DNA of 64,000 nucleotides from an uncultured Poribacteria bacterium (GTDB lineage Bacteria; Poribacteria; WGA-4E; WGA-3G): positions 2,624,001 to 2,688,000 of the forward strand of contig OX638351.1 of NCBI GenBank assembly GCA_951813565.1, written 5' to 3'. Under the pieces are notes generated by a model. That model worked only from the letters and a program-made list of their open reading frames with translations. It did not search any database and had not been told where the DNA came from. A program made the translations under genes and the position numbers. Positions within the stretch are counted from its first letter, which is position 1; each line of letters starts with the position of its first letter. Shown in pieces: positions 8,469 through 59,796 of the stretch.

Positions 8469-8968
8469 GGGTGTGTAAAGTTTTTGTAGAAATCCGCACA
8501 ACTCCTATTGTAGGGCGGGTCTCCGGGGAATGCCAAGAGGCATTCGGACCGTTGATTTGGTGCCTGCCCGCTGCATGGCACGTCCTGCACAGTGGCGGTG
8601 CACAGGGACCCCGCCCATAGGCGTCAATTTAAGCACACAATTACCAGATTGCCTCTTGTGGGAGGGCTTTATAAGCCCGATTTATATGTATTTATCGGGG
8701 TTGAAAACCCGACAAATGCCAAAAAGCAGAATCAACGCCGAGCGCGCGTATGGCACTCGTCGCATTTGGCGTTGATTTGGCAGCATGCCAAACGCGCATG
8801 CTGCGTTGATTCGCTCCCACAAGAGGGTATATCCTTAAATTGACGGCTATGGGGCACCAAATCAACGCTATGAATGCCTGTTGGCATTCCCCGGGACCCC
8901 GCTCTACAGTGGAAAACGCCGCGTAATCATTGCAAATTGAACCTATGTAACCAAAACTTTACACACCC
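8469..8968. mobile_element. Non-autonomous MITE with IS256-like ends and nested repeats
   Basis: TIR gggtgtgtaaagtttt / aaaactttacacaccc; 9-bp TSD tttaagcca (8460-8468 and 8969-8977). Confidence 0.85.
8616..8851. mobile_element. Nested MITE with CATAG…CTATG ends
   Basis: TIR cataggcgtcaatttaag / cttaaattgacggctatg; flanked by a duplicated ~18-bp REP segment. Confidence 0.8.
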
Positions 8969-9067
8969 TTTAAGCCAATTTATAGACATTTATAACATTT
9001 TCAGTTAAATTCTGATATAATGCCATTGCAACTTACACATTAAGAACGAATGGAGGAAAATATAGCA

Positions 9068-10096
9068 ATGTATAGGACTGCAATTGTGGGAGGCAGACGT
9101 GGTGTTCACCATGCTCGATGCTACGCTGGCATTGAAAACATGCAGGTAATAGCACTTTGCGAAATTGATGCCAACCGACTCAAAGATGCTGTAGCAGAAT
9201 TGAATGTCACAGGGCACACAGACTACGCAGAGATGTTAAGAACCGAAAAACCCGATATTGTACATGCAGTTACCCAACCGACAGTGCCACGGCATATATG
9301 GATAGAACCTGCCGCCGAAGCAGGCGTAAAAGCATTAGTGATAGAAAAACCGATCGCCCTTAGACCCAGCGAAGCAGAAGCACTTGCTGCTGCACACGAG
9401 AAAACAGGATTAAAGATTATTGTCAATCATCAACGAAGATATCTTCCATTTGCTGAAAAACTACTGGAGTTTTTTGCTGAAGACAGTCTTGGCGACATAC
9501 ACTTCATTCGAGCCTCCACACAAGGCGAGATAACTGATATGGACACGCATTTGATGGATGTTGTACTTTTTGCGCTTAAGGATATTCCTATCACACATGT
9601 GTGGGGTGCTGTTGAAGGTGATGAAATTTACGACGTTCCAAATCTTCAGTGTCCTGAAGATTTGATGGCGATTTATACATTTGAAAACGGTGCCCGTGTG
9701 TTTTTTGAATCCGCTCGAAATGCTTTTGGAACAATAGATTTTCCCGGTAGTAATCCACGCTGTAATCTTGATTTTTGGGGAACAAAAGGACGTATGTGGT
9801 GGCGTGAAAACGGTTCATGGGGATACCAACTTGATGGCCTGGCACACCCATTCGTTGAAAAAACCCATTTTGGAATAGATGACAGATTCGGACAACGCGC
9901 CTTTACACAAGCTATCGCGACATGGCTTGATGACGAGAATCAACCGCATCGCAATAGGTTAGAATTCGCTCTGCTTGGCTTCGATTTGATTATGGCGGCA
10001 TACCGCTCAGCACTGATTGGTGAACGGATTGCATGGCCCCCAAAACTTTCCGATGATGAATGGGTAGAACTTAAGAATCGGGTAGTCGGAAAGTAA
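9068..10096 (+). CDS. Gfo/Idh/MocA-family oxidoreductase
   Basis: N-terminal Rossmann fold, IEKPIA and VNHQRRY motifs; GGAGG RBS before ATG 9068. Confidence 0.88.
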   Translation: MYRTAIVGGRRGVHHARCYAGIENMQVIALCEIDANRLKDAVAELNVTGHTDYAEMLRTEKPDIVHAVTQPTVPRHIWIEPAAEAGVKALVIEKPIALRPSEAEALAAAHEKTGLKIIVNHQRRYLPFAEKLLEFFAEDSLGDIHFIRASTQGEITDMDTHLMDVVLFALKDIPITHVWGAVEGDEIYDVPNLQCPEDLMAIYTFENGARVFFESARNAFGTIDFPGSNPRCNLDFWGTKGRMWWRENGSWGYQLDGLAHPFVEKTHFGIDDRFGQRAFTQAIATWLDDENQPHRNRLEFALLGFDLIMAAYRSALIGERIAWPPKLSDDEWVELKNRVVGK

Positions 10097-10412
10097 CGTA
10101 GCAGAGCCATTCAGTTTTCGTGTTTTTCTCAACATTTTGGACACGGTCGCGAGCTGGAGCTCGCTCCCGCTAAATACCATAAGTGTATTTGGCGTTGATT
10201 CACAAGAAGAGACCTTTGGTAACAGAGCAATTGCTGAAAAATTGAATGGCTCTGATAACACTGGAAACAGAGGCATTCAATTTTCGTCTAATTATCCATT
10301 TTAGTCGAAAAGTTGGGGACTAAATTGACGCCTATGGGACCTAAAAATCGTTCCCAGATGCACGAATTAATTGTATTTTCTTTTCATTTCATTTGGAACA
10401 TCAGTTAAGGCG

Positions 10413-10783
10413 AGGCACAGGGACCCCGCCCATAGGCGTCAATTTAAGCACACAATTACCAGATTGCCTCTTGTGGGAGGGCTTTATAAGCCCGATTTAT
10501 ATGTATTTATCGGGGTTGAAAACCCGACAAATGCCAAAAAGCAGAATCAACGCCGAGCGCGCGTATGGCACTCGTCGCATTTGGCGTTGATTTGGCAGCA
10601 TGCCGGACGCGCATGCTGCGTTGATTCACTCCCACAAGAGGGTATATCCTTAAATTGACGGCTATGGGGCACCAAATCAACGGTATGAATGCCTTATGGC
10701 ATTCCCCGGGACCCCGCTCTACAGTGGAAAACGCCGCGTAATCATTGCAAATTGAACCTATGTAACCAAATATTTACACACCC
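10413..10783. repeat. Near-identical copy of the right part of the 8469-8968 composite MITE (left end missing)
   Basis: Aligns to 8598-8968 with few substitutions; nested CATAG MITE at 10431-10666; ends tttacacaccc. Confidence 0.85.
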
Positions 10784-10858: not shown

Positions 10859-11671
10859 ATGCTTACCCAAACCCAGGTTGACACGTTCCGTGAGAAAGGC
10901 TTTCTGCTCGGAAATCGTGTCCTAACTGACGAACAGGTCGAAGAATTGCGGTCAGAATTGGCTCGAGTGATTGACGATTACGAAAAAAACGATGTCCCGC
11001 AGCCTGTACGAATTGCTAACCTTGGCGGACGCGAAGAAAGTCCTGTCTGGCAAATCGTTAATATCTGGGAGGCGAGTCCTGCCTACCACCGACTTATTTA
11101 CAATCCAGTAATTGTAGAGGAAATTGGACAACTGACATCGGCTACAGAATTGCGCGTTTGGCACGACCAGATTCAATACAAACCCCCTCAGATTGGCGGT
11201 GTCAATAAATGGCATCAGGATTCACCGTTATGGGGAATACTTATGCCGAAAACGAGTCAGGTAACTGCTTGGGTCGCATTGGACGATGCTAATGAAAGCA
11301 ACGGATGTATGCGTATGGTCCCCGGTTCTTATCACTGGGGCAGTCAGATGGAGTTCTTGCGCACTATCGGAGACATCCACACAATGCATGACAACTTTGA
11401 AGAAAATAAACTATCCGTAGAACTCTGTCCTGTGCCAAAAGGACATGTGCATTATCATCATTCATTGACATGGCACGGATCACATGACAACGCCAGTGAC
11501 GCTGCACGACGTGCTATTGCGGTGCATTATATGACAAGCGAAACGGTTTACCATGAAAGTGGAAATCATCTCATGAAACCTTTTGTTACTGTTAATGGGG
11601 ATGAAAAATTGGCGGGTGATCATTTTCCACTTGTGATGGAGAATGGAACACCGACAAACTCGATGGCATGA
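10859..11671 (+). CDS. Phytanoyl-CoA dioxygenase (PhyH) family Fe(II)/2OG oxygenase
   Basis: WHQD, WVALDD, NGCMRMVPGS and WHGS..N…RRA motifs. Confidence 0.92.
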   Translation: MLTQTQVDTFREKGFLLGNRVLTDEQVEELRSELARVIDDYEKNDVPQPVRIANLGGREESPVWQIVNIWEASPAYHRLIYNPVIVEEIGQLTSATELRVWHDQIQYKPPQIGGVNKWHQDSPLWGILMPKTSQVTAWVALDDANESNGCMRMVPGSYHWGSQMEFLRTIGDIHTMHDNFEENKLSVELCPVPKGHVHYHHSLTWHGSHDNASDAARRAIAVHYMTSETVYHESGNHLMKPFVTVNGDEKLAGDHFPLVMENGTPTNSMA

Positions 11672-11700: not shown

Positions 11701-11949
11701 TAACGTGAGTTTGATAAATCCCGTAGGGAATCAACACCGAATGCGCCTACGGCATTCGGTGGGGTAGAACGGAAATGGACAATAAAAACAGACCCTAAAG
11801 AGAGGTTGTTGACCCATTTGAGGACGATATTTCCGAAAAAATAAGTGAAACCCAACTCTTTAGGACTCTCAAGACGGTTGAATTGTTGGGTTTCGCTTCG
11901 CTCTACCCAACGGACATCTATATTCATTTTAATTATCAAGTTCACGTTA
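11701..11949. mobile_element. MITE containing a REP pair and one 34-bp micro-insert
   Basis: TIR taacgtgagtttgataa / ttatcaagttcacgtta; 'atta' on both flanks. Confidence 0.65.
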
Positions 11950-11997: not shown

Positions 11998-12804
11998 ATG
12001 CTTAACCAAGCCCAAATCTATGCATTTCGTGAGAAGGGCTTTCTCCTCGGAAGTCGTGTTTTAAACGATGAACAAGTTGAGGAATTGCGGTCAGAATTGG
12101 CTCGCGTTATTGATGACTACAAAAAGGACGATATTCCACAACCGGTTCATATTGTGAATCTCGGAGGCAGGGAAGAAACACCTGTCTGGCAAATTGTAAA
12201 TATATGGGAGGCGAGTTCCGCCTATCATAGACTTGTTCACAATCCTATCATCGTCGAAGAAATTGGACAACTCACATCAGCGACAGAGGTGCGCGTCTGG
12301 CATGATCAAATCCAATACAAACCGGCACAAGTCGGTGGTGTAAACATGTGGCATCAGGATTCACCTTATTGGCCAATTCTTACGCCAAAGACGAGTCAGG
12401 TTACCGGATGGGTCGCGTTAGACGATGTTGATGAAAGCAATGGATGTATGCGAATGGTGCCTGGATCATACCATTGGGGTAATCAGATTTCCTTTCTGCA
12501 TTCTGTCAAAGACATCCATTCAATGCCAAACCACTTTGAAGATCACGAATTGGAAGTAGAACTTTGTCCTGTACCTAAAGGTTATGTACATTATCATCAT
12601 TCCTTAACGTGGCACGGATCACATGATAACACAAGTAAACAACCCCGACGCGCAATTGCAGTGCATTATATGACAAGTGAAACGCTTTATGATGAAAGCG
12701 GAAACCATGTTATGAAACCCTTTGTCACAGTCAATGATGGTGAAAAATTAGCTGGCAACCATTTTCCACTTGTGATGGCATCTGGAAGTCCAATCAGTCC
12801 ATAG
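11998..12804 (+). CDS. PhyH-family dioxygenase (tandem paralogue of 10859)
   Basis: Same motifs and highly similar protein; identical RBS context ataggagacaaatATG. Confidence 0.92.
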   Translation: MLNQAQIYAFREKGFLLGSRVLNDEQVEELRSELARVIDDYKKDDIPQPVHIVNLGGREETPVWQIVNIWEASSAYHRLVHNPIIVEEIGQLTSATEVRVWHDQIQYKPAQVGGVNMWHQDSPYWPILTPKTSQVTGWVALDDVDESNGCMRMVPGSYHWGNQISFLHSVKDIHSMPNHFEDHELEVELCPVPKGYVHYHHSLTWHGSHDNTSKQPRRAIAVHYMTSETLYDESGNHVMKPFVTVNDGEKLAGNHFPLVMASGSPISP

Positions 12805-15568: not shown

Positions 15569-16976
15569 CGCAATAAGTAGTTTTGGACTTTCAAAAAGCC
15601 CTTAAGCGTTATGGAAATTTATACTTAATAGGGTATGAGAATTCGGAAAAGCACTAAACGGCGAAGACTAATTTCTAACTCTAATCTGCGAGAACTTCTG
15701 CCCCTCCACCTCACATCGGTATAAAAGTTGAGCGCGCTTGATAGATACTTTGCAACGGCAGACAATTCTTCTAATCGTTTTGCCGTTGTGATATGAGTGT
15801 GGTCCAGCTTGTCAAGACCTTATTCTCTAAGTTCTTCTGCCATCGTTGAGTGAGTCTTCATCTCATACTCTCATTGACAAACTTATCAAAAATGCTCTCA
15901 ATGTTCCTATAGTTGTATTTATAGCACGCCTCTGCGACATATAGGGGCGTGTATTCAGTCCAATAGTGGTGATGACTTCCATACCAAGCACGTTTGAGAA
16001 GTGACCAGAAGCCTTCAATCGTATTGGTATGGACATCACCGTCAACAAATTGTTCTTGATGATCAATGATATGGTGCTTCATCTCTTTACCGAGTGTGAG
16101 ATAAGCCTTATACTCATCAGTCATCAACTGCGATTTATCTACTTTAACAACTTCGCGAATAAAATTTAAGATAGTCCGTCCCGTCAAATCTTTTGCGAGT
16201 CTTGCCACAACTTTCCCACCGCGTTCAATCGCTCCGATGATAGCATCTTTATCAGTGCCACGCCCACGCTTAGCAGGATCCCTGTCCTCTTTTTTGTTCG
16301 CTTTGCGAGGTTTACCCCCGACATAAGTTTCGTCAGCCTCTATGATACCTTGTAAGAGGATATTATCTTTAGCCATTTCAGCACGGATGCATGTTCCCAT
16401 ACGCCACGCAGTCTTTTGATTCAAGTCCAAATCTCTTGCCAACTGATGACTTGAAAGACTCTTTTTAGCATTCGTCATCAACGAGATAGCCAAAAACCAC
16501 TTCTGAAGTGCTATCTTTGTCCCGTGAAACACCGTGCCACAAGTAACCTTGAAAGTAGCAGTGCAATCGTGGCATTGCCAGCGCCCGATGCGTCCCAATT
16601 CCGTTTCTGTTCGTCTTGCAACGTTTGGGCAATCACAATGTGGACACTTCGGTTTACCCTTCCACCGAATACTCTCTAAATGTTCAATACAACTCTCTTG
16701 ATCAGGGAATCGTTCCATCACTTTCAACAAATCCATCAGAAAACTCCTTTTTAGGAGTTGCTTTTTCTGACAGGTTTCTGATACAATAATTAGATAAGAC
16801 AGAATGCCAGAAAAGCAACTCGCTTTTTTGTGTTCAATTAGGGGGTTAGCAGCCCTCTAATTTCTTATCTAAATTGTATCATATTTTCACAATTAAAACA
16901 AGCGAAAAATGTAGTCTACACAAGGATTTAGAGCGATTTTTAAAATTTTGTTGAAAGTCCAAAACTACTTATTGCG
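15569..16976 (-). mobile_element. IS1595-family insertion sequence, copy 1
   Basis: 26-bp perfect TIR cgcaataagtagttttggactttcaa; 8-bp TSD aaagtatt. Confidence 0.95.
15858..16736 (-). CDS. IS1595-family (ISXO2-like) DDE transposase
   Basis: N-terminal zinc ribbon CPHC…CHDC; EADETY, TDE and HTNTIEGFWSLLKR motifs. Confidence 0.95.
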   Translation of the reverse strand: MDLLKVMERFPDQESCIEHLESIRWKGKPKCPHCDCPNVARRTETELGRIGRWQCHDCTATFKVTCGTVFHGTKIALQKWFLAISLMTNAKKSLSSHQLARDLDLNQKTAWRMGTCIRAEMAKDNILLQGIIEADETYVGGKPRKANKKEDRDPAKRGRGTDKDAIIGAIERGGKVVARLAKDLTGRTILNFIREVVKVDKSQLMTDEYKAYLTLGKEMKHHIIDHQEQFVDGDVHTNTIEGFWSLLKRAWYGSHHHYWTEYTPLYVAEACYKYNYRNIESIFDKFVNESMR

Positions 16977-43968: not shown

Positions 43969-44399
43969 TTGCGAAAAAATTTGTCAATCTATAATAGTAG
44001 ATTTTGGAATTACTTGGACACTCTGCACCAGCGAGGTTAGGAAACCTCGCCTACCAGTGTTAATGTCCGAGGCGCAATGAATTGCGCGACTGCAAACACC
44101 ACAAATGCTAAGAAATGTTCACTTAATTTTACGACTTGTGCCAGTTAAGTGAAAGTTTTGTTGTTTTTCACAATTGTTCATATTTTGGAATCAACGCCAA
44201 ATACGCTTTTGGTATTTGGCCGGAGCGATCTCCGAATCGCGACACGTTTGCAGTCGGGAATCGGAGTTCCCTCCTACCTTGAGAACAGCAGCTATCGGAA
44301 AAGTTGCGGAATGCAAACCCAAACAAGAGGAACATGTGAAATATAAATATACCAAATGTTAACTGGCACAACGCGTTAATTTTATAATTCACTATAAAC

Positions 44400-47984: not shown

Positions 47985-48197
47985 GGGTGTGTAAAGTTTT
48001 TGTAGAAACCCGCACAACTCCTATTGTAGGGGCGGGTCTCCGGGGAATGCCAAAAGGCATTCGGACCGTTGATTTGGTGCCTGCCCGCTGCATGGCACGT
48101 CCTGCGCAGTGGCGGGGCACAGGGACCCCGCTCTACAGTGGAAAACGCCGCGTAATCATTGCAAATTGAACCTATGTAACCAAATATTTACACACCC
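47985..48197. mobile_element. Short form of the IS256-like-ended MITE
   Basis: gggtgtgtaaa / tttacacaccc ends; 9-bp TSD attgtacac. Confidence 0.88.
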
Positions 48198-48313: not shown

Positions 48314-48662
48314 TACTATAGTTTGGGCAATTCTTGTCTCGTGGAAATTAAGTTTCAACGGAAAATCTATTTTCTACGAGTTTCGCATATCAGTGAAACA
48401 CAGCGAAAATACCGCACTCCAGCGGAGTGCTATGTCTATAGAAAATGGCACGTATCTTGCGCTCCAGCGGAGTGCTATGTGTTGGAAATCACGTACCGCT
48501 CCGCTGGAGCGGAGGGACGGTTCATCATGTGGCTATAAACATATTGCTCCGCTGGAGCAAAGAGGGTTTCTGTTTTGTTTGTCTTGTGTTGATTTAGCAA
48601 TATAAGTCGTGGGCCAATTTCTTATATCAACTCAAGTTTGAAAAATTGTCCAAACTATAGTA
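48314..48662. mobile_element. MITE with internal gctccagcggag palindromes
   Basis: TIR tactatagtttgggcaatt / aattgtccaaactatagta; four short palindromic units at 48414-48558. Confidence 0.65.
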
Positions 48663-48678
48663 TATTTTAGGGACATAC

Positions 48679-49719: not shown

Positions 49720-49724
49720 GATGT

Positions 49725-50693
49725 ATGAGATTGACAGACAACCAACTTGCAACTTGGAAACGTGACGGAATCATCGTTGTGCCGAACGTTTTTTCACATG
49801 AGGCAGTTTCTTCTGCGCTGGAAGCAGTTGAGCAAAACGCTTATGATGGTTTATCCTACGCGGAATATCGCGCAAAATGGGATGACCAACCTGATGAACT
49901 TGAAAGGGCTTATGAAAAAAATGATCCTATGAATCGACTCGCGGGTCCCTTTGGTAAAGTTTCGCACTTTCCAACAGGGTTAGAAGCAGTGGACAAACTT
50001 ATCGAAAATGAAACCTATCTGGGGATTGCGCAGCAGTTGTTAGGCACAGAAGAAATCCGGATCAGCTATGGGCAAATTTTTCTGAGAGAAGGGTTAACGG
50101 ATAAACGCTACAGTGAGCATCCTTGGCAAGGGTATCACATTGACAATGGCACGAATGCAGCGTTGCCGCCGCATCCTGATTGGCAACGTTACGGATATAT
50201 TCTATGCAGCATTATGCTGCACGATGTTGATTTGGACGGTGCCCCGATGCTTATCTGTCCGGGTTCACAAGACCAATTGGATATGATATGGGAAAAACAT
50301 CCCGGCAGTGCGGGTGGACTCGGCATTCCTGACTTGCGTGAGTTTAAGGAATTGGCAGAACCTGTTCCTCTCATAGCGAAAGCGGGGAGTGCTATTTATC
50401 GGTCAAGTTATATAGTTCATGCTGCACAACCGTTTGCGAACAGAAGTAAACAGCGGGTATGGATGGGATATCACTTCCATCGTGCTGACAATGCTGGCTG
50501 GTGTTTAACAACACGACCTACCCCACGGTCAAGTCCACATTATATGAATTTTATCACACAAACAACGCCCTCGGTGAGACGAGTGTTAGGTTGGCCTGCG
50601 CCTGGCGATCCCTACTACACATCCCAAGCCTTAGATCGTTTAGCGCAAGCGTATCCTGAAATTGATTTAGAACCTTATCAAAAGAGTGCTTAG
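49725..50693 (+). CDS. PhyH-family dioxygenase
   Basis: YHID, LHDVD..GAPM.ICPGS and VHAA…R motifs. Confidence 0.82.
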   Translation: MRLTDNQLATWKRDGIIVVPNVFSHEAVSSALEAVEQNAYDGLSYAEYRAKWDDQPDELERAYEKNDPMNRLAGPFGKVSHFPTGLEAVDKLIENETYLGIAQQLLGTEEIRISYGQIFLREGLTDKRYSEHPWQGYHIDNGTNAALPPHPDWQRYGYILCSIMLHDVDLDGAPMLICPGSQDQLDMIWEKHPGSAGGLGIPDLREFKELAEPVPLIAKAGSAIYRSSYIVHAAQPFANRSKQRVWMGYHFHRADNAGWCLTTRPTPRSSPHYMNFITQTTPSVRRVLGWPAPGDPYYTSQALDRLAQAYPEIDLEPYQKSA

Positions 50694-50694
50694 G

Positions 50695-51405
50695 TTATTG
50701 TGGACACCACGCCATCACTGTACCAAAACTGGCGAAGGCGCTGTTTTCTCCACTTGTTAAAATCCGTGAACCTTGCACAACAATCCGCGTATCTCGGCTT
50801 GTGATTTTGTAACTGACTGGGGCATCTTTGGCAATCAACGGTTCTCCGTTCGCGTCCTTTAGTTTATCCAACCGATAATGCACCGACCTATGTGCAGGCA
50901 CGTCAAATTCACAAGAGACGTTTTCCAAATCAGTATCTTCATAAAGCACCTCTAACAGACAGCACGTCCCAATATCTGCAGTGTTGGAAATGCATATAGA
51001 TTCGTGTGAGAAATATCCGCCGCCATGCTGTTCCCATTCCTGCTCTGCTGCAGATAACCCTGCCATGTAGCCATCAGGAATTACCCAAACATAAGTCCCA
51101 TCCCCATCTGAGGTATAGGATTTAAGCGCATCTGCTACTGATTCTGGATTATCTTTGATTTCATTCAACGAAATTACCAGAAATCGGGAATATAGTTGAA
51201 TTCCTTTTGACGAATTGTCTTCTTTTCGTTGTCCTATCACATTCAAACATAATCTGTTTTCATCTAACATCTCAATATGACTCACGCCTTGTGACGTTAG
51301 CGAGTCACCGAACGTGTTGTTGAGAAGAGTTGTTAGCGTATCAAGATTTGAGATTCCTGCCTGTTTGTATTCTCGGATTGTTGCGAATAATACTTCATAA
51401 GTCAT
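50695..51405 (-). CDS. Protein with C-terminal ASRT (sensory rhodopsin transducer-like) domain
   Basis: WVIPDGY, SHESICISN, VPAHRSVHYRL and IVVQGSR resemble ASRT; AAGGAG RBS before ATG 51405. Confidence 0.7.
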   Translation of the reverse strand: MTYEVLFATIREYKQAGISNLDTLTTLLNNTFGDSLTSQGVSHIEMLDENRLCLNVIGQRKEDNSSKGIQLYSRFLVISLNEIKDNPESVADALKSYTSDGDGTYVWVIPDGYMAGLSAAEQEWEQHGGGYFSHESICISNTADIGTCCLLEVLYEDTDLENVSCEFDVPAHRSVHYRLDKLKDANGEPLIAKDAPVSYKITSRDTRIVVQGSRILTSGENSAFASFGTVMAWCPQ

Positions 51406-51425
51406 AGATTTCTCCTTGAGAGATT

Positions 51426-51773
51426 TTATACCATCCATCTTCCATCAATACCGAGCAGTGCTCCTAACACTTGTAAAAGCACAACCTCTGCATCAGGTCC
51501 GACAAAATGCCGATGGGCGTCAATATAGGTGCCGTAATCTGCTGCCCATTCACGAAAGTAGGTTTCGTATTCCCATCCGTTTGCAGTGCGGCGGAAACTG
51601 GAACGTTCTGGGTAAGGAAGTTTTTGATTTAAAAGTTCGTGTAGTTGTTCAGCGGTAGGTAACCATAAGTCTCTGTTGTTTTCTGAGGTGGGTTGAAGTG
51701 CTTGAATTGCAGGGTGTCGGCACATCTGTAGGTATTCTTCAGAAGAATGGTTATGTTTTTCTGATGGGGTCAT
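51426..51773 (-). CDS. Hypothetical protein
   Basis: 115-aa ORF co-oriented between neighbours; LWLPTAEQL motif. Confidence 0.65.
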   Translation of the reverse strand: MTPSEKHNHSSEEYLQMCRHPAIQALQPTSENNRDLWLPTAEQLHELLNQKLPYPERSSFRRTANGWEYETYFREWAADYGTYIDAHRHFVGPDAEVVLLQVLGALLGIDGRWMV

Positions 51774-51803
51774 GGGATGGGATAACGTTAATTGTCAAAT
51801 ATT

Positions 51804-52097
51804 TTACATGATGCCGAGAATTTTCCATGCGCGATCGTATTTTTGTCGTATTTCGTCTGAGGCAACGATAATATCCATTTTCATTTGCCTCGCAGTTTCA
51901 ATATCTGATCTCGTTTTTTCCCGCTCTCCGAGGCGTAACCACGATCCGCCACGATAGTAGCATGCCTCCGCATAGTCAGGTTTGAGTTCTATCGATTTGG
52001 TATAGTCTTCAATAGCAAGGTCTACCTCACCATTTTTACTTTTTTCTATCCCGCTATTAAAATACTTTTTAGCAAGTTCCTGATCCTGTTTTGCCAT
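51804..52097 (-). CDS. Small TPR-repeat protein
   Basis: YFNSG…AIEDYTKSIELKPDYAEACYYRG; GGAG RBS. Confidence 0.82.
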   Translation of the reverse strand: MAKQDQELAKKYFNSGIEKSKNGEVDLAIEDYTKSIELKPDYAEACYYRGGSWLRLGEREKTRSDIETARQMKMDIIVASDEIRQKYDRAWKILGIM

Positions 52098-52290
52098 TAT
52101 ATTCTTCTCCACAATGCGAATTACTTGAGAGTATGATACCATACAAAAAAGACAGATTCAACAGAATTTCGGAGGGCGACCGAATTAAACTTGTCCCTGT
52201 GGACATTCTTTAGGTCACAATAATCCTTGCAAATCCTGTAAAACTCCATTATAATACCAATTCTAAAATACAATGTCCCATTTAACATAC

Positions 52291-53020
52291 TACAGTCTAT
52301 CTCATAAATCGTTAAATACGGTTCCTTACACAGGTTCTACATTCATTGTAGGGGCGGGTCCCTGTGCCCGCCCATTGTTTCCACTTATGAGAGAGATGGC
52401 GAGGCACCAAATCAACGGTCCGAATGCCTTATGGCATTCCCCGGGACCTCGCCCTACAAATGATTTATGAGATACGCTCTATAATAGACATTATAATGAT
52501 TTAATCTGCGTTGTGTTGTCAGAATCGCGGATTATCGCAGATTTATCGGATGACGCGGATTTTAAGAACTTTGTATCCGCACATTCAACGGACGCATGCA
52601 CGCCTTCTGTTATTGACCGGACATTATGAAAACGACTTGTTGTTACCAGTATCCAATAATCCGTGCCATCTGCGTCATCCGATAAATCCGCGATTCAGAA
52701 AGTTGCGCGCGATGCCTCATCTACCCAACGGACAAACATAAGATTTTTCCGTGGACCAATAACTCACAATTATAGTAAAAATCACAATTACCTTTACATT
52801 TGCGAGGTTAGGAAACCTCGCCAGCGCAAGCGTGTGGGGATTGCTGTTCATTGAAATGTGAACATATTTTCGGATTTTACTATAAAACGTTATAATGTCT
52901 AATTTAATGGAATATCAACAGAAGAAAGAATGTCCGAGGCGACAAGTCATGGCGAATACCACACGCGTATTCGCCCAAGTGCGCTTGGCGTTGATTTGGC
53001 AATGAATTGCGCGACTACGA
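52291..53020. repeat. Cluster of nested MITE/REP elements
   Basis: IR pairs tatctcataaatc/gatttatgagata, agacattataa/ttataatgtct, tatagtaaaa/ttttactata and gaatcgcggatt/aatccgcgattc; micro-inserts at 52408 and 52941. Confidence 0.7.
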
Positions 53021-53114
53021 ACGCGTTTTTGTTAATGAGAAGCTATTATTTAGAAATGGTATAATATCCCACACCACCAATGAATGATCTTAGCAAGATG
53101 GAAAGAAATATTCA

Positions 53115-53945
53115 ATGAAATTGAGTTGTCTCCCCGTTTCTCTTTACGATGACATTTTCACCGGAAAAAGTACTGTTGCGGATTGGATCCGATTCGGTGC
53201 AAAATTGGGTTTAGATGCAGTTGACTTTAGTATCAAATTTTTTCCACATCGTGATGAAAAGATGACGCACATAGTCCGTACTATCCTTGCAAAACGCGGT
53301 TTAGAGGCATGCATGCTCGCGTGCTACTCCGACTTCACACATCCCGACCCTACGCAACGCGCACAAGAGTTAACTGAATTAAAAGCGGATATCGCATTAG
53401 CAAAAGCGTTGGGGGCAAAATTTGTTCGGGTGACAGCAGGACAAAATCACCCGGGAACTAAACGCGAAGAAGGGGTGCGTTGGGTTGTAGATGGATTTCG
53501 GCATGTGCTTGACGAAGCAGAAAAGCAGGGCATCACACTTGCTTATGAAAATCATACCAAAGGCGCGCCGTGGCAGTATTGGGATTTTTCACAACCGACA
53601 GAGATTTTTTTAGAAATCCTTGATGCCCTTTCGGACACACCACTCGGTGTTTGTTTCGACACCGCAAACCCTCTTGTCCTTAACGAAGATGTCTTGGAAC
53701 TGCTGGATAAAGTGATTGACCGTGTTGTTGTACTACATGTCTTTGACATGCGCGAAGCAGGGACGTTTGAACCTGTCCGTATCGGTACAGGCGCCTCACC
53801 TATACCACAAATCTTTTCCCGCACGCGGCAAGTTGGTTACAACGGTTGGCTCAGCATAGAGGAGGCAAGTCGTCAAGGACAACAAGGGTTTGAAGAAGCA
53901 ATCCAATATGTTAAGCAAGCATGGCAACAAGCATCATCCGCGTGA
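53115..53945 (+). CDS. Sugar phosphate isomerase/epimerase (TIM barrel)
   Basis: LAYENH, CFDTAN, LHVFD and GYNGWLSIEE motifs. Confidence 0.88.
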   Translation: MKLSCLPVSLYDDIFTGKSTVADWIRFGAKLGLDAVDFSIKFFPHRDEKMTHIVRTILAKRGLEACMLACYSDFTHPDPTQRAQELTELKADIALAKALGAKFVRVTAGQNHPGTKREEGVRWVVDGFRHVLDEAEKQGITLAYENHTKGAPWQYWDFSQPTEIFLEILDALSDTPLGVCFDTANPLVLNEDVLELLDKVIDRVVVLHVFDMREAGTFEPVRIGTGASPIPQIFSRTRQVGYNGWLSIEEASRQGQQGFEEAIQYVKQAWQQASSA

Positions 53946-54785
53946 GGGTTCACTCATCCGCTCCCGCGCTTGACGTGACAATTCCGCAAGATGTCCATCA
54001 TTCGCCATCACCTGTTCAAGGTGTATCTGACGTTCCGATGTCGCAGTGTTTACCATCTTCTCACCATACTTCCGATCAATCCAGAACCGTGACGAACCCG
54101 CTATATATGCCTGCAACGCGTCCAACTTCTCTTCTGGATACCGTTGGCAAAGATTCATCGTAAACATACGTCGGCGTGTGCCACCGCCAAACGCAGCGTG
54201 TTTAGTATTGTGGTTAAACAACACAAGATCACCGGGTGTTGTTTCAAAGACTACTGCAGGCACATCTTTTCCATGTATTTCCCACGTTTCCTGACTTCTT
54301 CCAATCTGCTGACTCAGTCCATCAGCATAGTTATCGCCAAAGAGATGACTACCCGGTATAACACGAAGCGCGCCAGTATCACGCGTGAGTGGATCAAGAT
54401 AAAATGCAATCTTAATATGCATCGGATCTTCTAAGCGATGTCCACCATCCGAATGCCATCCTGTATCACCAACATAGAAGTTGCCATCACTTCCCATGTA
54501 GTTAAAATCGTCTCCGAGCAACGTTTTTGCAATTGCCAGGATACGCGGATCATCCAGTAGCGATGCCAACTCTTCGCTTTGGTCAATGAAAGGCACTATA
54601 CAAGAACGTGCAGTACCTTCGTGTGGTTTGCCGTTATGTCCACCGCCGCGTTCTGACCAAACATTTTCAAACGCGTCCTGAATCGCCTCAATCCTGTCTG
54701 CCATCAGTTGTGGAAAACTAAGATAACCGAATGTCTTGAAGAAATTGATCTCCGAATCGGTGAGGTTGTAATCTTGTTGGTTCAT
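53934..54785 (-). CDS. PhyH-family dioxygenase
   Basis: FFKTFGYL, WHSD, FYLDPL…GALRVIPGSH and KHAA…RRM motifs. Confidence 0.9.
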   Translation of the reverse strand: MNQQDYNLTDSEINFFKTFGYLSFPQLMADRIEAIQDAFENVWSERGGGHNGKPHEGTARSCIVPFIDQSEELASLLDDPRILAIAKTLLGDDFNYMGSDGNFYVGDTGWHSDGGHRLEDPMHIKIAFYLDPLTRDTGALRVIPGSHLFGDNYADGLSQQIGRSQETWEIHGKDVPAVVFETTPGDLVLFNHNTKHAAFGGGTRRRMFTMNLCQRYPEEKLDALQAYIAGSSRFWIDRKYGEKMVNTATSERQIHLEQVMANDGHLAELSRQARERMSEPSRG

Positions 54786-54807
54786 TTTTTACATTCCTCC
54801 TTTATTA

Positions 54808-54963
54808 TAACCTAAGTTGCTACGGACAAGATTTCAAGCTTGTAGACATTGCTTTTTACTGAAAAACAAGGATTTCCAGCTAATTCTTATGCTTTCTTTT
54901 TTAAATCGGGGTTAGAAACCCCTCCTACAAGAGCATTCGCGATATAGGTAGCAACTTGGGTTA
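54808..54963. mobile_element. TAACCYAAGTTGC-ended MITE
   Basis: TIR taacctaagttgc / gcaacttgggtta; 3-bp TSD tta; inverted relative of 56527-56683. Confidence 0.8.
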
Positions 54964-55120
54964 TTATAGTGGATTTTACAATTAACTGGACATTGTCACT
55001 CGGCACGGACAAAGTGTTCTACAGTTTTAAAGTCGCGACCTGCGAATCAACGCCAAATCAAGAAATCAACGCTACAAATCATGGCGAATGCCATACGCGC
55101 ATTCGTCTTGAGGCATTTGG

Positions 55121-55290
55121 CCAAATCAACGCTGAATACGCTTTTGGTATTCAGCCAAATCAACGCTGAATACGCTTTTGGTATTCAGCCAAATCAACGC
55201 TGAATACGCTTTTGGTATTCAGCCAAATCAACGCTGAATACGCTTTTGGTATTCAGCCAAATCAACGCTGAATACGCTTTTGGTATTCAG
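55121..55290 (+). repeat. Perfect tandem array, 5 x 34 bp of the hairpin micro-element
   Basis: (ccaaatcaacgctgaatacgcttttggtattcag)x5. Confidence 0.95.
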
Positions 55291-55499
55291 CGGGTATGAA
55301 TGCCTTTTGACATTCCCCGTATGGCATTTGTCGGGTCGCTCCTACAGGAAGAGGCGCAATGAATTGCGCGACTACAAACGCCGCTAACCTAAAGAAAATG
55401 TCCAGGTATTTTTAGATTTTACTGTAATTCAACTATTGCAGATGTCTGTTTTATGGGATTGTCAAACCATAAGTCATAATTTGTGTGAGTTCTTACACA

Positions 55500-56360
55500 C
55501 TAATTTTCGGTTCGCTTGCTTTTCAGGTATCCCCACGTGGTTGTAAATTTGCCTTTCGGTTCAATGCTTAAGGGATGGGCGATTTTTGCAAAATCTGCCA
55601 TGGCAAATGCCGAATTGTAAACGATGACTTCATCAATGACACCGCCAAACCAGTCTACATTGGTGCCATCTTGAAGACCATCATGGTAAACCGTTTTCTG
55701 AGTGACGTGCCCAATTGAAATATTATTTCCGTGCATATGAAGTTGTCCGCCTTTTTCTTTGTCAATGAGTTGTCCATCTAACCACATTTCAAATTTATCG
55801 TTTTCAACTCTCCCAGAAGCATCCCGAATGACTAAAGCAATATGATGCCACCGATTTGCTCTAATTTTCGCAGACGGCCAAGCTCCATCCCAATTGTACT
55901 CTGCCTGATTCCAGCCACCAACGTAAACTTTTCCACTGTGCACATAGATGGCTAAACCTCGTGTGCCGCCGCCTTCCTGATAAATAACCTGCTTCTGATT
56001 TTTGCTGATGTCGGCACATTTAAAAAATGCTGCGACCGTTCGGTTAGTATACGGGCCACCTGTATTAATATTAACAGAATCCGGAATATTAACCGCGTCA
56101 CTTTTGCCATTAAACTGCAATGCTTTTCCAACAATACCGTTAACGGATTTCGGATCCCCCACAAACACGCCATGTAATCTTTTGTTTGAACTATCTTTAG
56201 CACTGCCATCATTAAACGTCCAATTTCCAGCAACCGTTGCTTCGTTACGCTGCGCGTCTACTCGCATAATCGGTAAAAAAGTAAATAGCAGCGAAGTAAA
56301 GCCTGATAGTACGATTATGCCAAACCTGTGAATTCTGATCTTATTTAATGCTTGAATCAT
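55500..56360 (-). CDS. LamG-like protein with shared C-terminal tail
   Basis: Hydrophobic leader; GNWTFNDG, WHHIALV and FGGVIDEVIVYN motifs; ends SIEPKGKFTTTWGYLK; start uncertain. Confidence 0.82.
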   Translation of the reverse strand: MIQALNKIRIHRFGIIVLSGFTSLLFTFLPIMRVDAQRNEATVAGNWTFNDGSAKDSSNKRLHGVFVGDPKSVNGIVGKALQFNGKSDAVNIPDSVNINTGGPYTNRTVAAFFKCADISKNQKQVIYQEGGGTRGLAIYVHSGKVYVGGWNQAEYNWDGAWPSAKIRANRWHHIALVIRDASGRVENDKFEMWLDGQLIDKEKGGQLHMHGNNISIGHVTQKTVYHDGLQDGTNVDWFGGVIDEVIVYNSAFAMADFAKIAHPLSIEPKGKFTTTWGYLKSKRTEN

Positions 56361-56484
56361 CTCCCATCTCCTTTGGAACATTTGTTTTCTTATTTCCACA
56401 GTCAATCTTCTTGAAACAGATGTCCTCAAACTTTAAGGTATTATGGCAAATTAGCAAAATTTTATCAATTACTTGTTTTGTTTC

Positions 56485-56764
56485 GGGTGTGTAAAGTTTT
56501 TGTAGAAATCCGCACAACTCCTATTGTAACCAAAGTTGCCACCTATTTCGCAAATGCTCTTGTAGGAGGGGTTTCTAACCCCGATTTAGAACAAAAAACA
56601 TAAGAATCAGCGAAAAAGCCTTGTTTTTTCAGTAAAAAGCAGTGTTTGCTAACTTGAAATCTTGTCCGTAGCAACTTAGGTTATTGTAGGGACCCTGCTC
56701 TACAGTGGAAAACGCCGCGTAATCATTGCAAATTGAACCTATGTAACCAAATATTTACACACCC
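56485..56764. mobile_element. IS256-like-ended MITE carrying a nested TAACC MITE (56527-56683, TSD ttg)
   Basis: Same ends as 8469 and 47985; no outer TSD. Confidence 0.8.
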
Positions 56765-56781
56765 TTCTCAATCAATCTTTC

Positions 56782-56810
56782 TTGACAAAAAAGCGGATAT
56801 TCGGTATACT
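56782..56810 (+). promoter_or_regulatory. Sigma70 promoter of the helicase gene
   Basis: TTGACA-N17-TATACT. Confidence 0.7.
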
Positions 56811-56841
56811 AAATATAGGATTCGTAGTATAGGGGGTTTAG

Positions 56842-59235
56842 ATGCTTTACAAAGGCTTAGAGCTTGATCAATTCCAAGAGGAAGCAATTGCAGCAATTAA
56901 TGACGACCATTCTGTGATAGTGACAGCTCCTACTGGTGCCGGTAAAACTGTTATAGCAGAATATGCTGTTGAAAAATGTCTTCAGACAAATAAACGCGTT
57001 ATCTACACAGCACCGATTAAAGCCCTTAGCAATCAAAAATATAGAGATTTTCAATCTGAATACGGTGATAAAATTGGTATCGTAACCGGTGATGTGGTCT
57101 TAAATCCTTATGCTCAAGTCCTATTGATGACCACTGAGATATTCCGAAATACCATCTTTGATGATATAGAAAGATTACAGGACGTTTCCTATGTCATCTT
57201 TGATGAAATTCACTATATCAACGATATTGAGCGTGGCACCGTCTGGGAAGAAAGCATTATTTTTGCACCGCAGCATATCAAATTTGTCAGTCTCAGTGCG
57301 ACAATTCCAAACATCAACTCTTTTGCGGAGTGGATGCAAAGTGTTAGAGAAATTGACATTAAAGTTGTTGAAGAGTTAGAACGTCCTGTGCCTTTAGAAC
57401 ATCACCTTTATTTTTCGGGCTTCGGTATAGGTAAATTGGGCCACCTTAATGATCTTCGTCAGACAGCAAAACGACAGAAACGTAAAGATGAAAATCGGAG
57501 GGATGATACATCTAAAAAACCAAAAGGTATAATCAACACAGAGTTGATTCCTTACCTGACCAAGCAAAATCGTCTGCCGTGTCTCTATTTCTGTTTCAGC
57601 CGTAAAAGATGTGAAGGCAATGCCCACTATTACGCATCTTCGGGGCAACACGAGTTGCTTGATACAGAAAAACAGGAACAGATTTTAGAAAAATTTGACG
57701 CGCTTTGTATTCAATTTGATATTGTTGAAGAGCAGGTAATTACCGATTTTCGCCAATTAATCAGTTGCGGAATAGCCTATCATCATGCGGGCATGTTACC
57801 TACACTCAAAGAAGTAGTTGAGCGGTTATTTACTTCAGGATTAATTCAACTCCTATTTACCACTGAGACGTTTGCTGTTGGAATCAACATGCCTGCATGT
57901 ACAGTCGTGTTTGATAGTTTAGAAAAATTTGACGGTGTTAGTTTCCGTTATCTTGAGGCTCGTGAATATCACCAAATGGCGGGCAGAGCAGGCAGACGCG
58001 GGATTGATACTGTCGGTTATGTGTATGCCCAAGTTAACCCGAAATATGCAACACATGACGATGTTAGCAAAGCCATTTCCAATACCATTGAACCCATCAC
58101 AAGCCAGTTCAATCTCTCATATTCCAGTATCCTTAATCTATATGAAAAATATGGCGACGAGATTTACGATGTTTACACGATGAGTCTAAGCAATCACCAA
58201 AATTATAAACGCCTGAGCGATCTCAATAAACAGATTGCTCTCTTAGATGAGAAACGTGAAGCCTTACCCCTTCCTACCTGTATCCACGATAACATTGAGG
58301 GTATGAAACAAATTGAAAGTTATCATAGACATAAGCATAAAAATCAAAAGAACCTTGAAAGGTTGCAGTTGGAATTAGCATCTCTTAAATCATTGCGCGG
58401 AAGATCAAAGAAAAATGAACAAAAAAAGAGAACAGTACTAATTCACGACAAAATGCAAAGTCTCCATGCTGAACTCGCTAAAAACTTGTGCCACGAATGC
58501 TACGAGCGCAAACAATGCACCAATAGATATCAGGCAATCCGTAAACAGGAACAACGTATTCAAAATTTAAAGCAAAAACAGACATCAATTGAGAATTATC
58601 AGCAAGGTCAGATAGCTGCTCGTCTTAATGTTCTTGAGACGCTTGGGTACATTGAATCACAAACACTGCTACCGCGCGGGAACACCGCATCACATATTTA
58701 TGGATACGAACTCCAATTGACGCAACTTCTCTTTAATGGATTTTTCGAACGGTTAACTGAAGATGAAATCAATTGTCTCATGGTAGCGATAGTGTCTGAA
58801 CCTCGCAAAGATGGTTATTTTAAAAGGCTAAAAAATAAAAGATTGTTATCAGTTTTGGGGGCAGCTTGGAGCGAAATTTTAGACATTCAAGAGTTAGAAA
58901 GCAAACTCAAAGTCTCTGAGTTTGTTCCGCTGTTGGAACCTCGTTTGTGTTCAGCTATGTTAGCGTGGAGCCGTGGGTGCGAATTTGATAAATTGACCGA
59001 CTATGCGGCACTTGATCCGGGAGACTTTGTCAGAACGTTCCGACTTGTCATTGACCAACTACGTCAAATTCGTCGTGCTATGGCAGGACACACTGCCCTC
59101 ACAGATAAATTGAATAGTTGTATTAATAAAATTAATCGTGATGTTGTTGATGCTGAACGTCAGCTGCGAATCGGGCAGGAGGAACCGTTTGAAGAGGAAG
59201 ATAACACAGTAAACATCAATGATAGTTCAGGATAG
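56842..59235 (+). CDS. Ski2/HelY-like DEAD/DEAH-box RNA helicase
   Basis: APTGAGKT, YTAPIKALSNQK, DEIH, LSAT, HHAG, TETFAVGINMPA and QMAGRAGRRG motifs; DSHCT-like C-terminus (GDFVR…INRDVV). Confidence 0.92.
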   Translation: MLYKGLELDQFQEEAIAAINDDHSVIVTAPTGAGKTVIAEYAVEKCLQTNKRVIYTAPIKALSNQKYRDFQSEYGDKIGIVTGDVVLNPYAQVLLMTTEIFRNTIFDDIERLQDVSYVIFDEIHYINDIERGTVWEESIIFAPQHIKFVSLSATIPNINSFAEWMQSVREIDIKVVEELERPVPLEHHLYFSGFGIGKLGHLNDLRQTAKRQKRKDENRRDDTSKKPKGIINTELIPYLTKQNRLPCLYFCFSRKRCEGNAHYYASSGQHELLDTEKQEQILEKFDALCIQFDIVEEQVITDFRQLISCGIAYHHAGMLPTLKEVVERLFTSGLIQLLFTTETFAVGINMPACTVVFDSLEKFDGVSFRYLEAREYHQMAGRAGRRGIDTVGYVYAQVNPKYATHDDVSKAISNTIEPITSQFNLSYSSILNLYEKYGDEIYDVYTMSLSNHQNYKRLSDLNKQIALLDEKREALPLPTCIHDNIEGMKQIESYHRHKHKNQKNLERLQLELASLKSLRGRSKKNEQKKRTVLIHDKMQSLHAELAKNLCHECYERKQCTNRYQAIRKQEQRIQNLKQKQTSIENYQQGQIAARLNVLETLGYIESQTLLPRGNTASHIYGYELQLTQLLFNGFFERLTEDEINCLMVAIVSEPRKDGYFKRLKNKRLLSVLGAAWSEILDIQELESKLKVSEFVPLLEPRLCSAMLAWSRGCEFDKLTDYAALDPGDFVRTFRLVIDQLRQIRRAMAGHTALTDKLNSCINKINRDVVDAERQLRIGQEEPFEEEDNTVNINDSSG

Positions 59236-59463
59236 TCTATAGGCGGGTTCGCTTACGCTCAATTTATAAGCGTCAATTTAAGAAAAACCTATCGTAGTGA
59301 ATCAACACCTCATGCACGTCTGGCATTCGGTGGGTAGAACGGAACTGAGAAAGAGGGACTGATAACTAAACTTATCTCAAAACTACCTACTGACACCTAT
59401 CATCAAGGAGGTAGTGAAATCCAACAATGGACTTACTAAAGTCGGGTTTCGCTTCGCTCTACC

Positions 59464-59796
59464 CATAGGTGTCAACTTAAGCACAAAATGCTGGATTATC
59501 TCTTGTGGGAGGGAGACCTTGTCCGCCCGATTTTTGAGATTTAAACAGGTAAATCCAAATCAACGATGAATGCGCCAAATCAAGAAATCAACGGTATGAA
59601 TCATGGCGAATCATGTAGAATACCAAAAGCGTATTCTACCAAGCGCATTCGTCTTTAGTCATTCACCGGGTATGAATGCCATTTAGGCATTCCCCGTATG
59701 GCATGCTGCGGGGTTGAAAACCCGCCAAATGCCAAAAAGCGCATTTGACGTTGATTCACTCCCACAAGAGGATATATTCTTAAATTGACGCCTATG
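59464..59796. mobile_element. CATAG…CTATG MITE with nested micro-elements
   Basis: TIR cataggtgtcaacttaag / cttaaattgacgcctatg; 19-bp flanking duplication ggtttcgcttcgctcta[c/t]c. Confidence 0.82.

What the first reader, a model, noticed from the sequence alone, without database searches (positions are those of the whole stretch)
8525..59757. A ~34-bp self-nesting hairpin micro-element that inserts into REPs, MITEs and itself
Seen: about 30 copies of a 33-35-bp unit, in both orientations. The unit is a head [C/G]AATCAAC[G/A] followed by a hairpin with a 6-7-nt loop of rough consensus GCNTNTG. Stems covary: gaatac/gtattc, aaatac/gtattt, aaatgc/gcattt, gaatgc/gcattc, gcatgc/gcatgc. Copies lie at 8525, 8711-8812 (three, one nested in reverse), 8858, 10168, 10526-10627, 10673, 11728, 44188, 48042, 52408, 52941, 55044-55333, 59299, 59556-59709 and 59724. 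Empty and filled sites coexist: 21271 vs 8525/48042; 1762 vs 10168; 15401 vs 44188; 48115 vs 8858; and 54908 (0 units) vs 59724 (1) vs 8711 (3). There is no target duplication; 0-2 nt are replaced. I saw none inside genes. Knowledge: HUH/Y1 enzymes (IS200/IS605 TnpA, RAYT/TnpA-REP) act on short motif-plus-hairpin ends without TSD. Inference: this is an exceptionally small non-autonomous mobile unit parasitising other hairpins, mobilised by an enzyme not encoded in this window.
Basis: partly seen in the sequence, partly recalled or inferred. Interest (0 to 1): 0.87.

Follow-up and report, generated by a model that had tools for sequence, protein, structure and literature searches.

The report
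Tiny mobile hairpin repeats in Poribacteria
A sponge-symbiont bacterium carries hundreds of copies of a 33-36-base hairpin DNA unit, plus a 28-base sister unit with the same hairpin, that have inserted into other repeats, into each other and occasionally into genes, and the enzyme that moves them is still unknown.

Summary
Confirmed. Genome: 800 A hits against 0 in a reversed control; about 100 B. Stems covary (8 of 9 pairs). Independent movement is shown by orthologous genes: lplA is filled in 3 of 25 genomes, ogg in 11-14 of 25, both clean in-frame inserts without target duplication. Corrections: the window's own empty/filled pairs are paralogous repeats; 674 of 741 copies sit in repeated flanks, and where relatives could be compared the whole host MITE is absent; 1-5 target bases are sometimes lost (B usually replaces 4). 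The unit is confined to one Poribacteria family (76 of 81 genomes). No tested enzyme (RAYT/Y1, RT, IS110, Cas1, a short tyrosine recombinase) tracks it. Best guess: single-strand cut-and-join by a trans-acting HUH-type enzyme (0.45). It resembles cyanobacterial SDRs and 52-bp terminal-only PATEs. This scan reported unit A before in eight notes on this genome; B was not in the notes returned.

The parts
8525..8559 (-). A unit, CA-type head, bulged stem, 35 nt, at C|G in the loop of a GTAG REP
   Evidence: empty paralogues at 21271, 52348, 59968
8711..8779 (-). A unit split in its loop by the reversed unit at 8728
8728..8761 (+). A unit (AG prefix) nested in reverse in the loop of the previous unit
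8780..8813 (-). A unit, first of the head-to-tail pair, in a REP
   Evidence: empty paralogue at 54908
8858..8892 (+). A unit, CA head, bulged stem; one target base missing against the empty paralogue at 48115
8469..8968 (.). Host MITE (ends GGGTGTGTAAA / TTTACACACCC, 9-bp target duplication) that carries the five units 8525-8892; missing at the orthologous site in 3 of 4 relatives, a different filling in the fourth
10168..10201 (-). A unit, G head, inside the GTAG tag of a REP in a MITE; present at the orthologous site in G006
10526..10628 (-). Three A units (10526-10594 split, 10543-10576 reversed, 10595-10628): copy of the 8711 cluster carried by the same host repeat
10673..10707 (+). A unit, CA head, bulged stem
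11728..11761 (+). A unit, G head, A-T closing pair
44188..44221 (+). A unit, G head, in the GTAG tag of a REP
   Evidence: empty paralogue at 15401
48042..48076 (-). A unit, CA head, in a 213-bp MITE (47985-48197) with a 9-bp target duplication
52408..52442 (+). A unit, CA head, bulged stem
52941..52998 (-). A unit split in its 3' arm by a B unit
52948..52975 (-). B unit (28 nt: 9-bp hairpin + ATG tail, no tag)
55044..55333 (+). Nest of 8 A units: outer G-head unit (55044.. and 55319-55332, 5' arm collapsed), a bulged unit split in its own head (55054-55061 and 55293-55318), a GA-prefix unit 55062-55121, and five identical 34-nt tandem units 55122-55291
55080..55107 (-). B unit inside the 55062 unit
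59299..59332 (+). A unit, G head, decayed stem; spanned without gaps by contigs of four runs from four studies
59556..59709 (+). Nest of 3 A units (outer 59556.. and 59696-59709 with unmatched arms; bulged unit split in its head; GA-prefix unit 59584-59668)
59602..59653 (-). B unit split by a second B unit (59612-59639): B in B in A in A in A
59724..59758 (-). A unit, TG prefix, 8-nt loop, in a REP

Best explanation
A and B are two sister families of very small non-autonomous mobile DNA of one Poribacteria family. Shown: each is a 9-bp hairpin kept by compensatory change, with a single-stranded extension on one side only (A: 8-9-nt 5' tag; B: 3-nt 3' tail); A has entered new sites, genes included, as a precise unit without target duplication, mostly at C|G; new A units add at the 3' foot, in the loop or in the tag of older ones; most of today's copies were multiplied by host MITEs/REPs and, by inference, by slippage or recombination between units. 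Inferred: the moving form is single-stranded DNA, cut after a C at both ends and closed into a 33-36-nt dumbbell whose second loop is the tag, then joined into a single-stranded target cut after C (or T) by a trans-acting HUH/Y1-type cut-and-join enzyme that reads the hairpin and tag, as TnpA-REP and IS200/IS605 TnpA do. The enzyme is not identified. Mobility itself about 0.92; this mechanism about 0.45.
For: Orthologous presence/absence with clean junctions: lplA 36-nt insert at C|G in 3 of 25 genomes, ogg 33-nt insert at C|A in 11 clear and 3 decayed of 25; a third gene in another genus has a 33-nt in-frame unit where the G000 orthologue has a 10-residue gap; inserts in two transposase genes. 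Covariation 0.381 against 0.177 shuffled, 0 of 500; 8 of 9 pairs change on both sides; five positions beat all 2000 shuffles among 87 distinct stems. C precedes the junction in 54% and G follows it in 83% of 133 context clusters; the unit ends in C and tandem junctions read C|CA, so one C|N specificity serves both ends and the target. TnpA-REP cuts at C|T or C|A on either side of a tagged hairpin (PMC8266576). A 52-bp single-hairpin PATE may be mobile (PMC3119063). The closed circle folds as the same hairpin. By established knowledge 34 bp of duplex is too short for a two-ended DDE or serine-recombinase synapse.
Against: No cognate gene: of 38 Y1 loci read, 6 have an A unit within the fetched stretch and none has units on both sides. 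Y1 genes were not found in unit-bearing G023 (one contig) and G010, and were found in 19 of 24 unit-free genomes of other families; the G000 RAYT type is in 45 of 81 family genomes, both unit-free g12 genomes included, and in 20 of 28 genomes of families f2 and f3. The published guide rule applied to the bases at the hairpin foot does not give C|G (my reading). Loss of 1-5 target bases and a variable 1-2-nt prefix at the tag end, and the 4-nt replacement by B (12 of 15 contexts), are not what one clean strand transfer gives. No orientation bias with local GC skew (35 against 32 free copies), but the IS605 control was not significant either.
Confidence: 0.45

Rival explanations
1. No dedicated enzyme: hairpin-forming single-stranded fragments are captured at nicks or breaks (for example where SbcCD or a RAYT has cut a host hairpin) by repair, and spread by template switching, slippage and gene conversion.
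For: Ragged tag-side junction with 0-5 bases lost; double-headed and double-footed palindromic forms and chimeric flanks show heavy recombination between units; the same host site carries different stem types under one prefix; no tested enzyme follows the unit; sbcD and sbcC lie in the window.
Against: The tag is nearly invariant while the stem varies, which points to recognition by a protein; in-gene inserts are exact whole units; the host REPs occur in other families without units, so repair alone is not enough.
Confidence: 0.22
2. The unit moves through a short RNA copied by a reverse transcriptase at a nicked target, as was proposed for cyanobacterial SDRs (recalled).
For: One precise and one ragged end; mismatches fit wobble pairs better on the strand that reads hairpin then tag complement (63 A.C against 33 G.T on the tag-first strand among 87 stems; kin are not independent); G000 has two RT genes.
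Against: RVT_1 was not found in G006 (381 strict matches), G023 or G001; no target duplication; wobble pairs do not tell RNA from single-stranded DNA.
Confidence: 0.13
3. A recombinase of another class (IS110-type, tyrosine or serine recombinase, Cas1-type integrase) inserts the unit.
For: IS110 members target REPs (PMC12288879, abstract start); unit length equals a CRISPR spacer; double-headed forms look like an integron attC hairpin (recalled); G000's only tyrosine recombinase is an unusual 203-aa protein.
Against: IS110 in 0 of 5 genomes; Cas1 not found in G006 or G017 and no duplication is made; the short recombinase has close orthologues in only 20 of 31 genus genomes and none in the sister genus; junctions do not fall inside the AAC/GTT triplet.
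Confidence: 0.12
4. The unit is not independently mobile: it is an old REP/MITE module whose copies spread only with their hosts.
For: 674 of 741 copies have a repeated flank; 15 contexts hold 401 of 563 primary copies; orthologous intergenic regions of five relatives differ by whole MITEs; the copy at 59299 is shared by contigs of four runs.
Against: Exact inserts in lplA, ogg and a third gene with no host repeat around them; 48 copies with unique flanks; 133 context clusters.
Confidence: 0.08

Closest known systems
Small dispersed repeats (SDR) of Nostocaceae, Elhai et al. 2008, Genome Res 18:1484 (paper not held; seen only in reference lists and citing passages of PMC4390886, PMC5861425, PMC2884548, PMC3116915; other details recalled)
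   Same: [quoted passage not shown]
   Different: Other phylum; 28-36 nt against about 20 nt or 21-27 nt (recalled); sequence relation could not be tested; here two sister families share one hairpin with tails on opposite sides, and in-frame inserts in genes give orthologous empty sites.
Tagged REPs, BIMEs and REPIN/RAYT systems (PMC3733652 abstract, background and start of results; PMC8266576 abstract, introduction and passages; PMC3116915 passages)
   Same: 20-50 nt, conserved unpaired tag 5' of an often bulged hairpin, hundreds of intergenic copies, clusters.
   Different: Tag is 8-9 nt and is neither GTAG nor CGTC; moves as a singlet, not as an inverted doublet (302 of 405 neighbouring pairs are in the same orientation); no cognate RAYT flanked by it; it inserts into the GTAG REPs of the same genome.
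PATEs (incl. 52-bp terminal-only forms) and SMR-A repeats of Haloquadratum (PMC3119063, passages)
   Same: No target duplication, hairpin-based, transposase-free; terminal-only PATEs have one hairpin; SMR-A elements target the palindromes of other elements and their enzyme is unknown.
   Different: Smaller; no IS200/IS605 element with the same hairpin was found among the ends examined; no fixed 4-6-nt target; SMRs have terminal inverted repeats and are 80-110 bp.
Palindromic GC clusters (GC42) of yeast mitochondria (PMC4478555, abstract and opening only)
   Same: About 40-nt palindromic mobile units with presence/absence, merger and shuffling.
   Different: Organelle DNA; putative target duplication reported; no fixed single-stranded tag described in what I read.

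Membership tests
Tagged REP (GTAG/CGTC superfamilies) | 20-50-nt palindrome with a conserved unpaired motif at one end, intergenic, high copy | tested here: met
Tagged REP (GTAG/CGTC superfamilies) | The tag is GTAG or CGTC | tested here: not met
   Tag is RAATCAAC
REPIN/RAYT | Inverted doublet is the replicative unit | tested here: not met
   344 of 566 loci are singlets, neighbours mostly head-to-tail; in-gene inserts are singlets
REPIN/RAYT | Cognate RAYT gene flanked by the repeat and co-distributed with it | tested here: not met
   0 of 38 Y1 loci read have units on both sides; distribution does not match. Only part of the Y1 loci of the genus was read.
REPIN/RAYT | Single-strand cleavage by TnpA-REP guided by the tag | not testable with these tools
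   Needs an in vitro assay
PATE / IS200-IS605 derivative | No terminal inverted repeats, no target duplication, subterminal palindrome | tested here: met
PATE / IS200-IS605 derivative | Hairpin and ends shared with an IS200/IS605 element | tested here: not met
   Ends of the five TnpA loci and of one copy each of three TnpB families of G000 carry other hairpins; other genomes only sampled
PATE / IS200-IS605 derivative | Fixed 4-6-nt target on one side | tested here: not met
   Only C/T at -1 and G at +1 to +3 are enriched
PATE / IS200-IS605 derivative | Orientation bias with the replication fork | tested here: inconclusive
   No bias, but the IS605 control was also not significant, 14 against 24, p 0.14
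MITE | Terminal inverted repeats and target duplication | tested here: not met
   The tag lies outside the stem and no duplication is seen; the host MITE does show a 9-bp duplication
SDR-like very small mobile repeat (descriptive kind) | Dispersed unit well under 50 nt, conserved structure, lineage-restricted, precise insertion into other repeats and itself | tested here: met
   the definition itself is partly recalled
SDR1-8 of Nostocaceae (sequence families) | Sequence or structure homology to SDR1-8 | not testable with these tools
   Paper not held; no SDR sequences were available
Rfam RNA families | Match at gathering score | tested here: not met
   0 matches in the window; one chance hit at E 4.7 in the 55030-55350 nest
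CRISPR repeat or spacer | Repeat-spacer array, Cas1 dependence | tested here: not met
   Arrays have no spacers; the genome's CRISPR repeats differ; Cas1 not found in two unit-rich genomes

The most novel reading that the evidence does not exclude
A and B are the two halves of one recognition system, a 'cut 5' of the hairpin' form and a 'cut 3' of the hairpin' form, each moving alone as a 28-36-nt single-stranded dumbbell, driven by a family-specific enzyme outside the RAYT, IS200/IS605, IS110, RT and Cas1 families or by a host enzyme, with no autonomous element behind it. That would be a new, minimal route of DNA mobility that also writes 11-12-residue in-frame inserts into core genes.
Probability: 0.2. 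Interest if true: 0.85.

Novelty: new member of a known kind. Interest (0 to 1): 0.57.

Why it matters
How REPs, SDRs and similar sub-50-nt repeats spread is an old open question. This system gives what is usually missing: exact empty and filled alleles in single-copy genes, a sharp taxonomic border (one family), and two sister units that share a hairpin but differ in which side carries the tail and in what they do to the target, so any proposed mechanism has to explain both. It also shows that such units add short peptides to core enzymes and that these persist across species. Against this: the kind is known since 2008, the host is uncultured, no enzyme is in hand, and the scan has noted unit A several times already.

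Tried and rejected
Enzyme hunts that led nowhere: Y1 family across 61 genomes and the G000 RAYT across 121; flanks of Y1 loci (54 loci given, 16 returned no HUH frame with my motif and were dropped, one of them a filler region that was not a Y1 locus, 38 read); RT and IS110 in 5 genomes each; IS91-type Y2 in 5 genomes (0 of 5, but the control rang nowhere, so no conclusion); Cas1 in 61; the short tyrosine recombinase in 121; multi-copy ORFs and a HUH-motif scan of G000; loci of low-copy genomes for a conserved master locus (none beside a mobility gene). Viral contigs: 60 pattern matches for A, single copies, 4 with a complementary inner stem and none with the family loop; 0 for B. Plasmid and phage collections: no match. 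Sequencing runs: no RNA holder listed. Contigs of four runs on 43900-60100 gave no usable orthologous polymorphism: a 35-nt skip at 48041-48077 and an extra unit at 56583 lie in multi-copy repeats and match paralogues. Replication-strand bias: inconclusive. Ideas dropped: prefix base as complement of the replaced base (fails for the AG and GA classes); integron cassette (crossover not in the AAC/GTT triplet); CCA/tRNA-like end (seen only at tandem junctions). My recursive collapse removed 731 units and left 253 heads, because its rules did not know B, and it counted one false unit at window 17114. The in-gene screen needed long open frames on both sides and so missed lplA and ogg. Supplements were not read; the SDR paper and its tables may bear on the family comparison.


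Full report
Setting. The window is bases 2,624,001-2,688,000 of a 5.43-Mb single-contig genome of 43% G+C. The 7 other listed records lack the family loop.

Observation. Every coordinate given holds a unit. Parsing the nests by hand gives 28 tagged units (A) and 4 untagged ones (B). A is: prefix of 1-2 nt, AATCAAC, three outer pairs, an optional 2-nt bulge on the 5' arm, six inner pairs, a 6-8-nt loop, ending on the closing base (629 simple copies). A weight matrix finds 800 copies at 20 bits or more and none in the reversed genome. Of 971 heads only 15 lie well inside ORFs of 150 aa or more, which cover 74% of the genome; most of those are chance matches or ORF ends, three are true in-frame inserts. 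Rfam has no match.

Structure. On 40 distinct unbulged units (33 chosen by 5' arm and loop with only two bases of the 3' arm constrained, 7 added from the window) 89.7% of cells pair, 8 of 9 pairs change on both sides, and the covariation score is 0.381 against 0.177 shuffled (0 of 500); slid registers give at most 0.126. Among 87 distinct stems five positions exceed all 2000 shuffles. Relatedness inflates such figures, but four different inner-stem types and several outer types each keep pairing. The tag is invariant in the alignment partly by selection; a softened matrix still found few variants.

Mobility. At the orthologous intergenic sites of up to five relatives the whole host MITE is usually absent or replaced; the 8525-8892 group sits in a MITE with its own 9-bp duplication; 674 of 741 copies have a repeated flank and 15 contexts hold 401 of 563 primary copies. 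Independent movement is shown elsewhere in the genome. In lplA a 36-nt unit lies between C and G in 3 of 25 orthologues fetched (of 38 found) and is cleanly absent in 22; in ogg a 33-nt unit lies between C and A in 11, a decayed 33-nt stretch in 3, and 11 are empty (25 fetched of 39 found). A third gene in the sister genus carries a 33-nt in-frame unit where the G000 orthologue has a gap. No target duplication is seen. Within the species the copy at 59299 is spanned without gaps by contigs of all four runs laid, and the copy at 10168 is shared with G006; present-day activity is not shown.

Junction rules. Of 298 flank contexts, 108 have an exact empty counterpart in the genome. The commonest class is a CA-prefixed unit at C|G with nothing lost (31 contexts), plus additions at the 3' foot of an older unit (17 contexts), which build the tandem arrays. 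G-prefixed units are 33 nt; in REP tags the following A appears as G, which ogg suggests can be a later change that extends the stem (most orthologues keep A, G000 has G; inference). Other classes lose 1-5 target bases at the tag side. Over 133 context clusters the consensus is only C/T before and G, G, G after. These contexts are in repeats more often than intergenic YGR sites (58% against 34%) and fold better overall (-6.3 against -4.7 kcal/mol) but hardly so in unique DNA (-5.0 against -4.5), so hairpin targeting is at most a preference. One host site often carries different stem types under one prefix, and double-headed, double-footed and chimeric forms occur: recombination and slippage among units add much of the variety (inference).

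Sister family B. About 100 hairpins of the same sequence family have no tag but a 3' tail ATG or ATT. B is 28 nt, its stem covaries too (29 distinct stems), it enters the 3' arm of A, of other B and of REPs, and in 15 of 70 contexts with an empty match it replaces 4 target bases in 12, 5 in 2 and 3 in 1. It is found in 35 of 36 genus genomes and 0 of 24 genomes of other families, like A (35 of 36 and 0 of 24, a pattern that omits bulged units). A word search and a sequence search of earlier notes returned nothing for it.

Range. A covariance model finds A in 76 of 81 genomes of the family, in 0 of 9, 0 of 3 and 0 of 8 of other families, and at marginal E-values in 2 of 19 of family f3 (counts per genome are capped by the tool). 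The host GTAG REPs occur in the two genomes of other families tested, so hosts alone do not produce units. Viral contigs, phages and plasmids gave no true copy.

Enzyme. G000 has 10 Y1 matches: five IS605 TnpA, two IS200-like, three RAYT-like. Their flanks carry GTAG-type or other repeats; where a unit is near, in the G000 loci read by eye, it sits inside such a REP. No tested family follows the unit: Y1, RT, IS110, Cas1, a short tyrosine recombinase; the IS91 test was uninformative. Absence from incomplete genomes is weak evidence, and old copies can outlive their enzyme.

Mechanism. Shown: unit boundaries, structure, precise insertion without duplication, nesting, passive amplification. Inferred: a single-stranded intermediate, since the unit is too short for a duplex synapse (established knowledge), closes into a dumbbell and is cut after C at both ends and in the target, as TnpA-REP cuts at C|T or C|A on either side of a tagged hairpin (PMC8266576). 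I put this at 0.45, repair capture at 0.22, an RNA/RT route at 0.13, another recombinase at 0.12, and no independent mobility at 0.08. The ragged tag-side junction and the 4-nt replacement by B are the main facts that a clean HUH exchange does not explain.

Comparison and novelty. It works like a tagged REP or a terminal-only PATE and behaves like the SDRs of Nostocaceae, but fails the membership tests for GTAG/CGTC REPs, REPINs, PATEs and MITEs; sequence relation to SDRs could not be tested. Papers seen: PMC3733652 (first of 8 parts), PMC8266576 (first of 7 parts and passages), PMC6006769, PMC3116915, PMC4390886, PMC5861425, PMC2884548 and PMC3119063 (passages), PMC4478555 (abstract and opening), PMC12288879 (listing only); Elhai et al. 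2008 not seen, details recalled. Searches for a printed description in Poribacteria and for the general kind listed none by title or abstract start; the library lacks most subscription journals. Earlier notes of this scan describe unit A on other windows of this genome. Verdict: a real new family pair of a known kind of very small mobile repeat, enzyme unknown; interest 0.57.

Noticed in passing
window 59851-61216 (+): IS605-type element: left end with its own hairpin, a remnant of tnpA interrupted by a REP-bearing insert, and an intact-looking tnpB (370 aa); the genome has a cluster of 30 similar ORFs.
   Followed up: partly
window 8469-8968, 47985-48197, 56485-56764; also 8616-8850, 10104-10253, 11702-11948, 54807-54964: At least five MITE families with different inverted ends are stacked inside one another in the intergenic regions; one makes 9-bp target duplications. 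Orthologous regions of relatives are short or hold other MITEs.
   Followed up: partly
G000:C1:4771357-4771965 (L410): The only PF00589 match of the genome is a 203-aa tyrosine recombinase without the usual N-terminal domain, conserved at 78-96% in 20 of 31 genus genomes; no 300-aa XerC/XerD-like match was found in G000 or G017.
   Followed up: partly
G000:C1:3988991-3996000 (L271, L273) and 811749-813284 (L272): A reverse transcriptase gene next to cas1 and a long CRISPR array, and a second, stand-alone RT of 511 aa.
   Followed up: no
window 47147-47331: A dense patch of substitutions in the aldo/keto reductase gene in three of four runs, suggesting a recombined allele.
   Followed up: no
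window 1843-6728 (+): sbcD and sbcC (hairpin-cutting nuclease) genes; of possible bearing on so hairpin-rich a genome.
   Followed up: no
window 15858-16736 and 35226-36104 (-): Two copies of an IS1595/ISXO2-like transposase with identical Pfam scores; 17 similar ORFs in the genome.
   Followed up: no
window 40561-43961: An Rhs-repeat gene in two ORFs followed by IS5/IS4-type transposase pieces.
   Followed up: no
window 10859-11671 and 11998-12804 (+): Tandem PhyH paralogues with near-identical leader and start regions.
   Followed up: no
G000:C1:4404988-4405159 (-): An array of five A units in which two stem types strictly alternate, pointing to duplication of a two-unit block.
   Followed up: no
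G001 (handle): A 97% complete genus member with no strict A match, seven weak model matches, one B, few GTAG REPs and no Y1 gene: a natural low-repeat control.
   Followed up: partly
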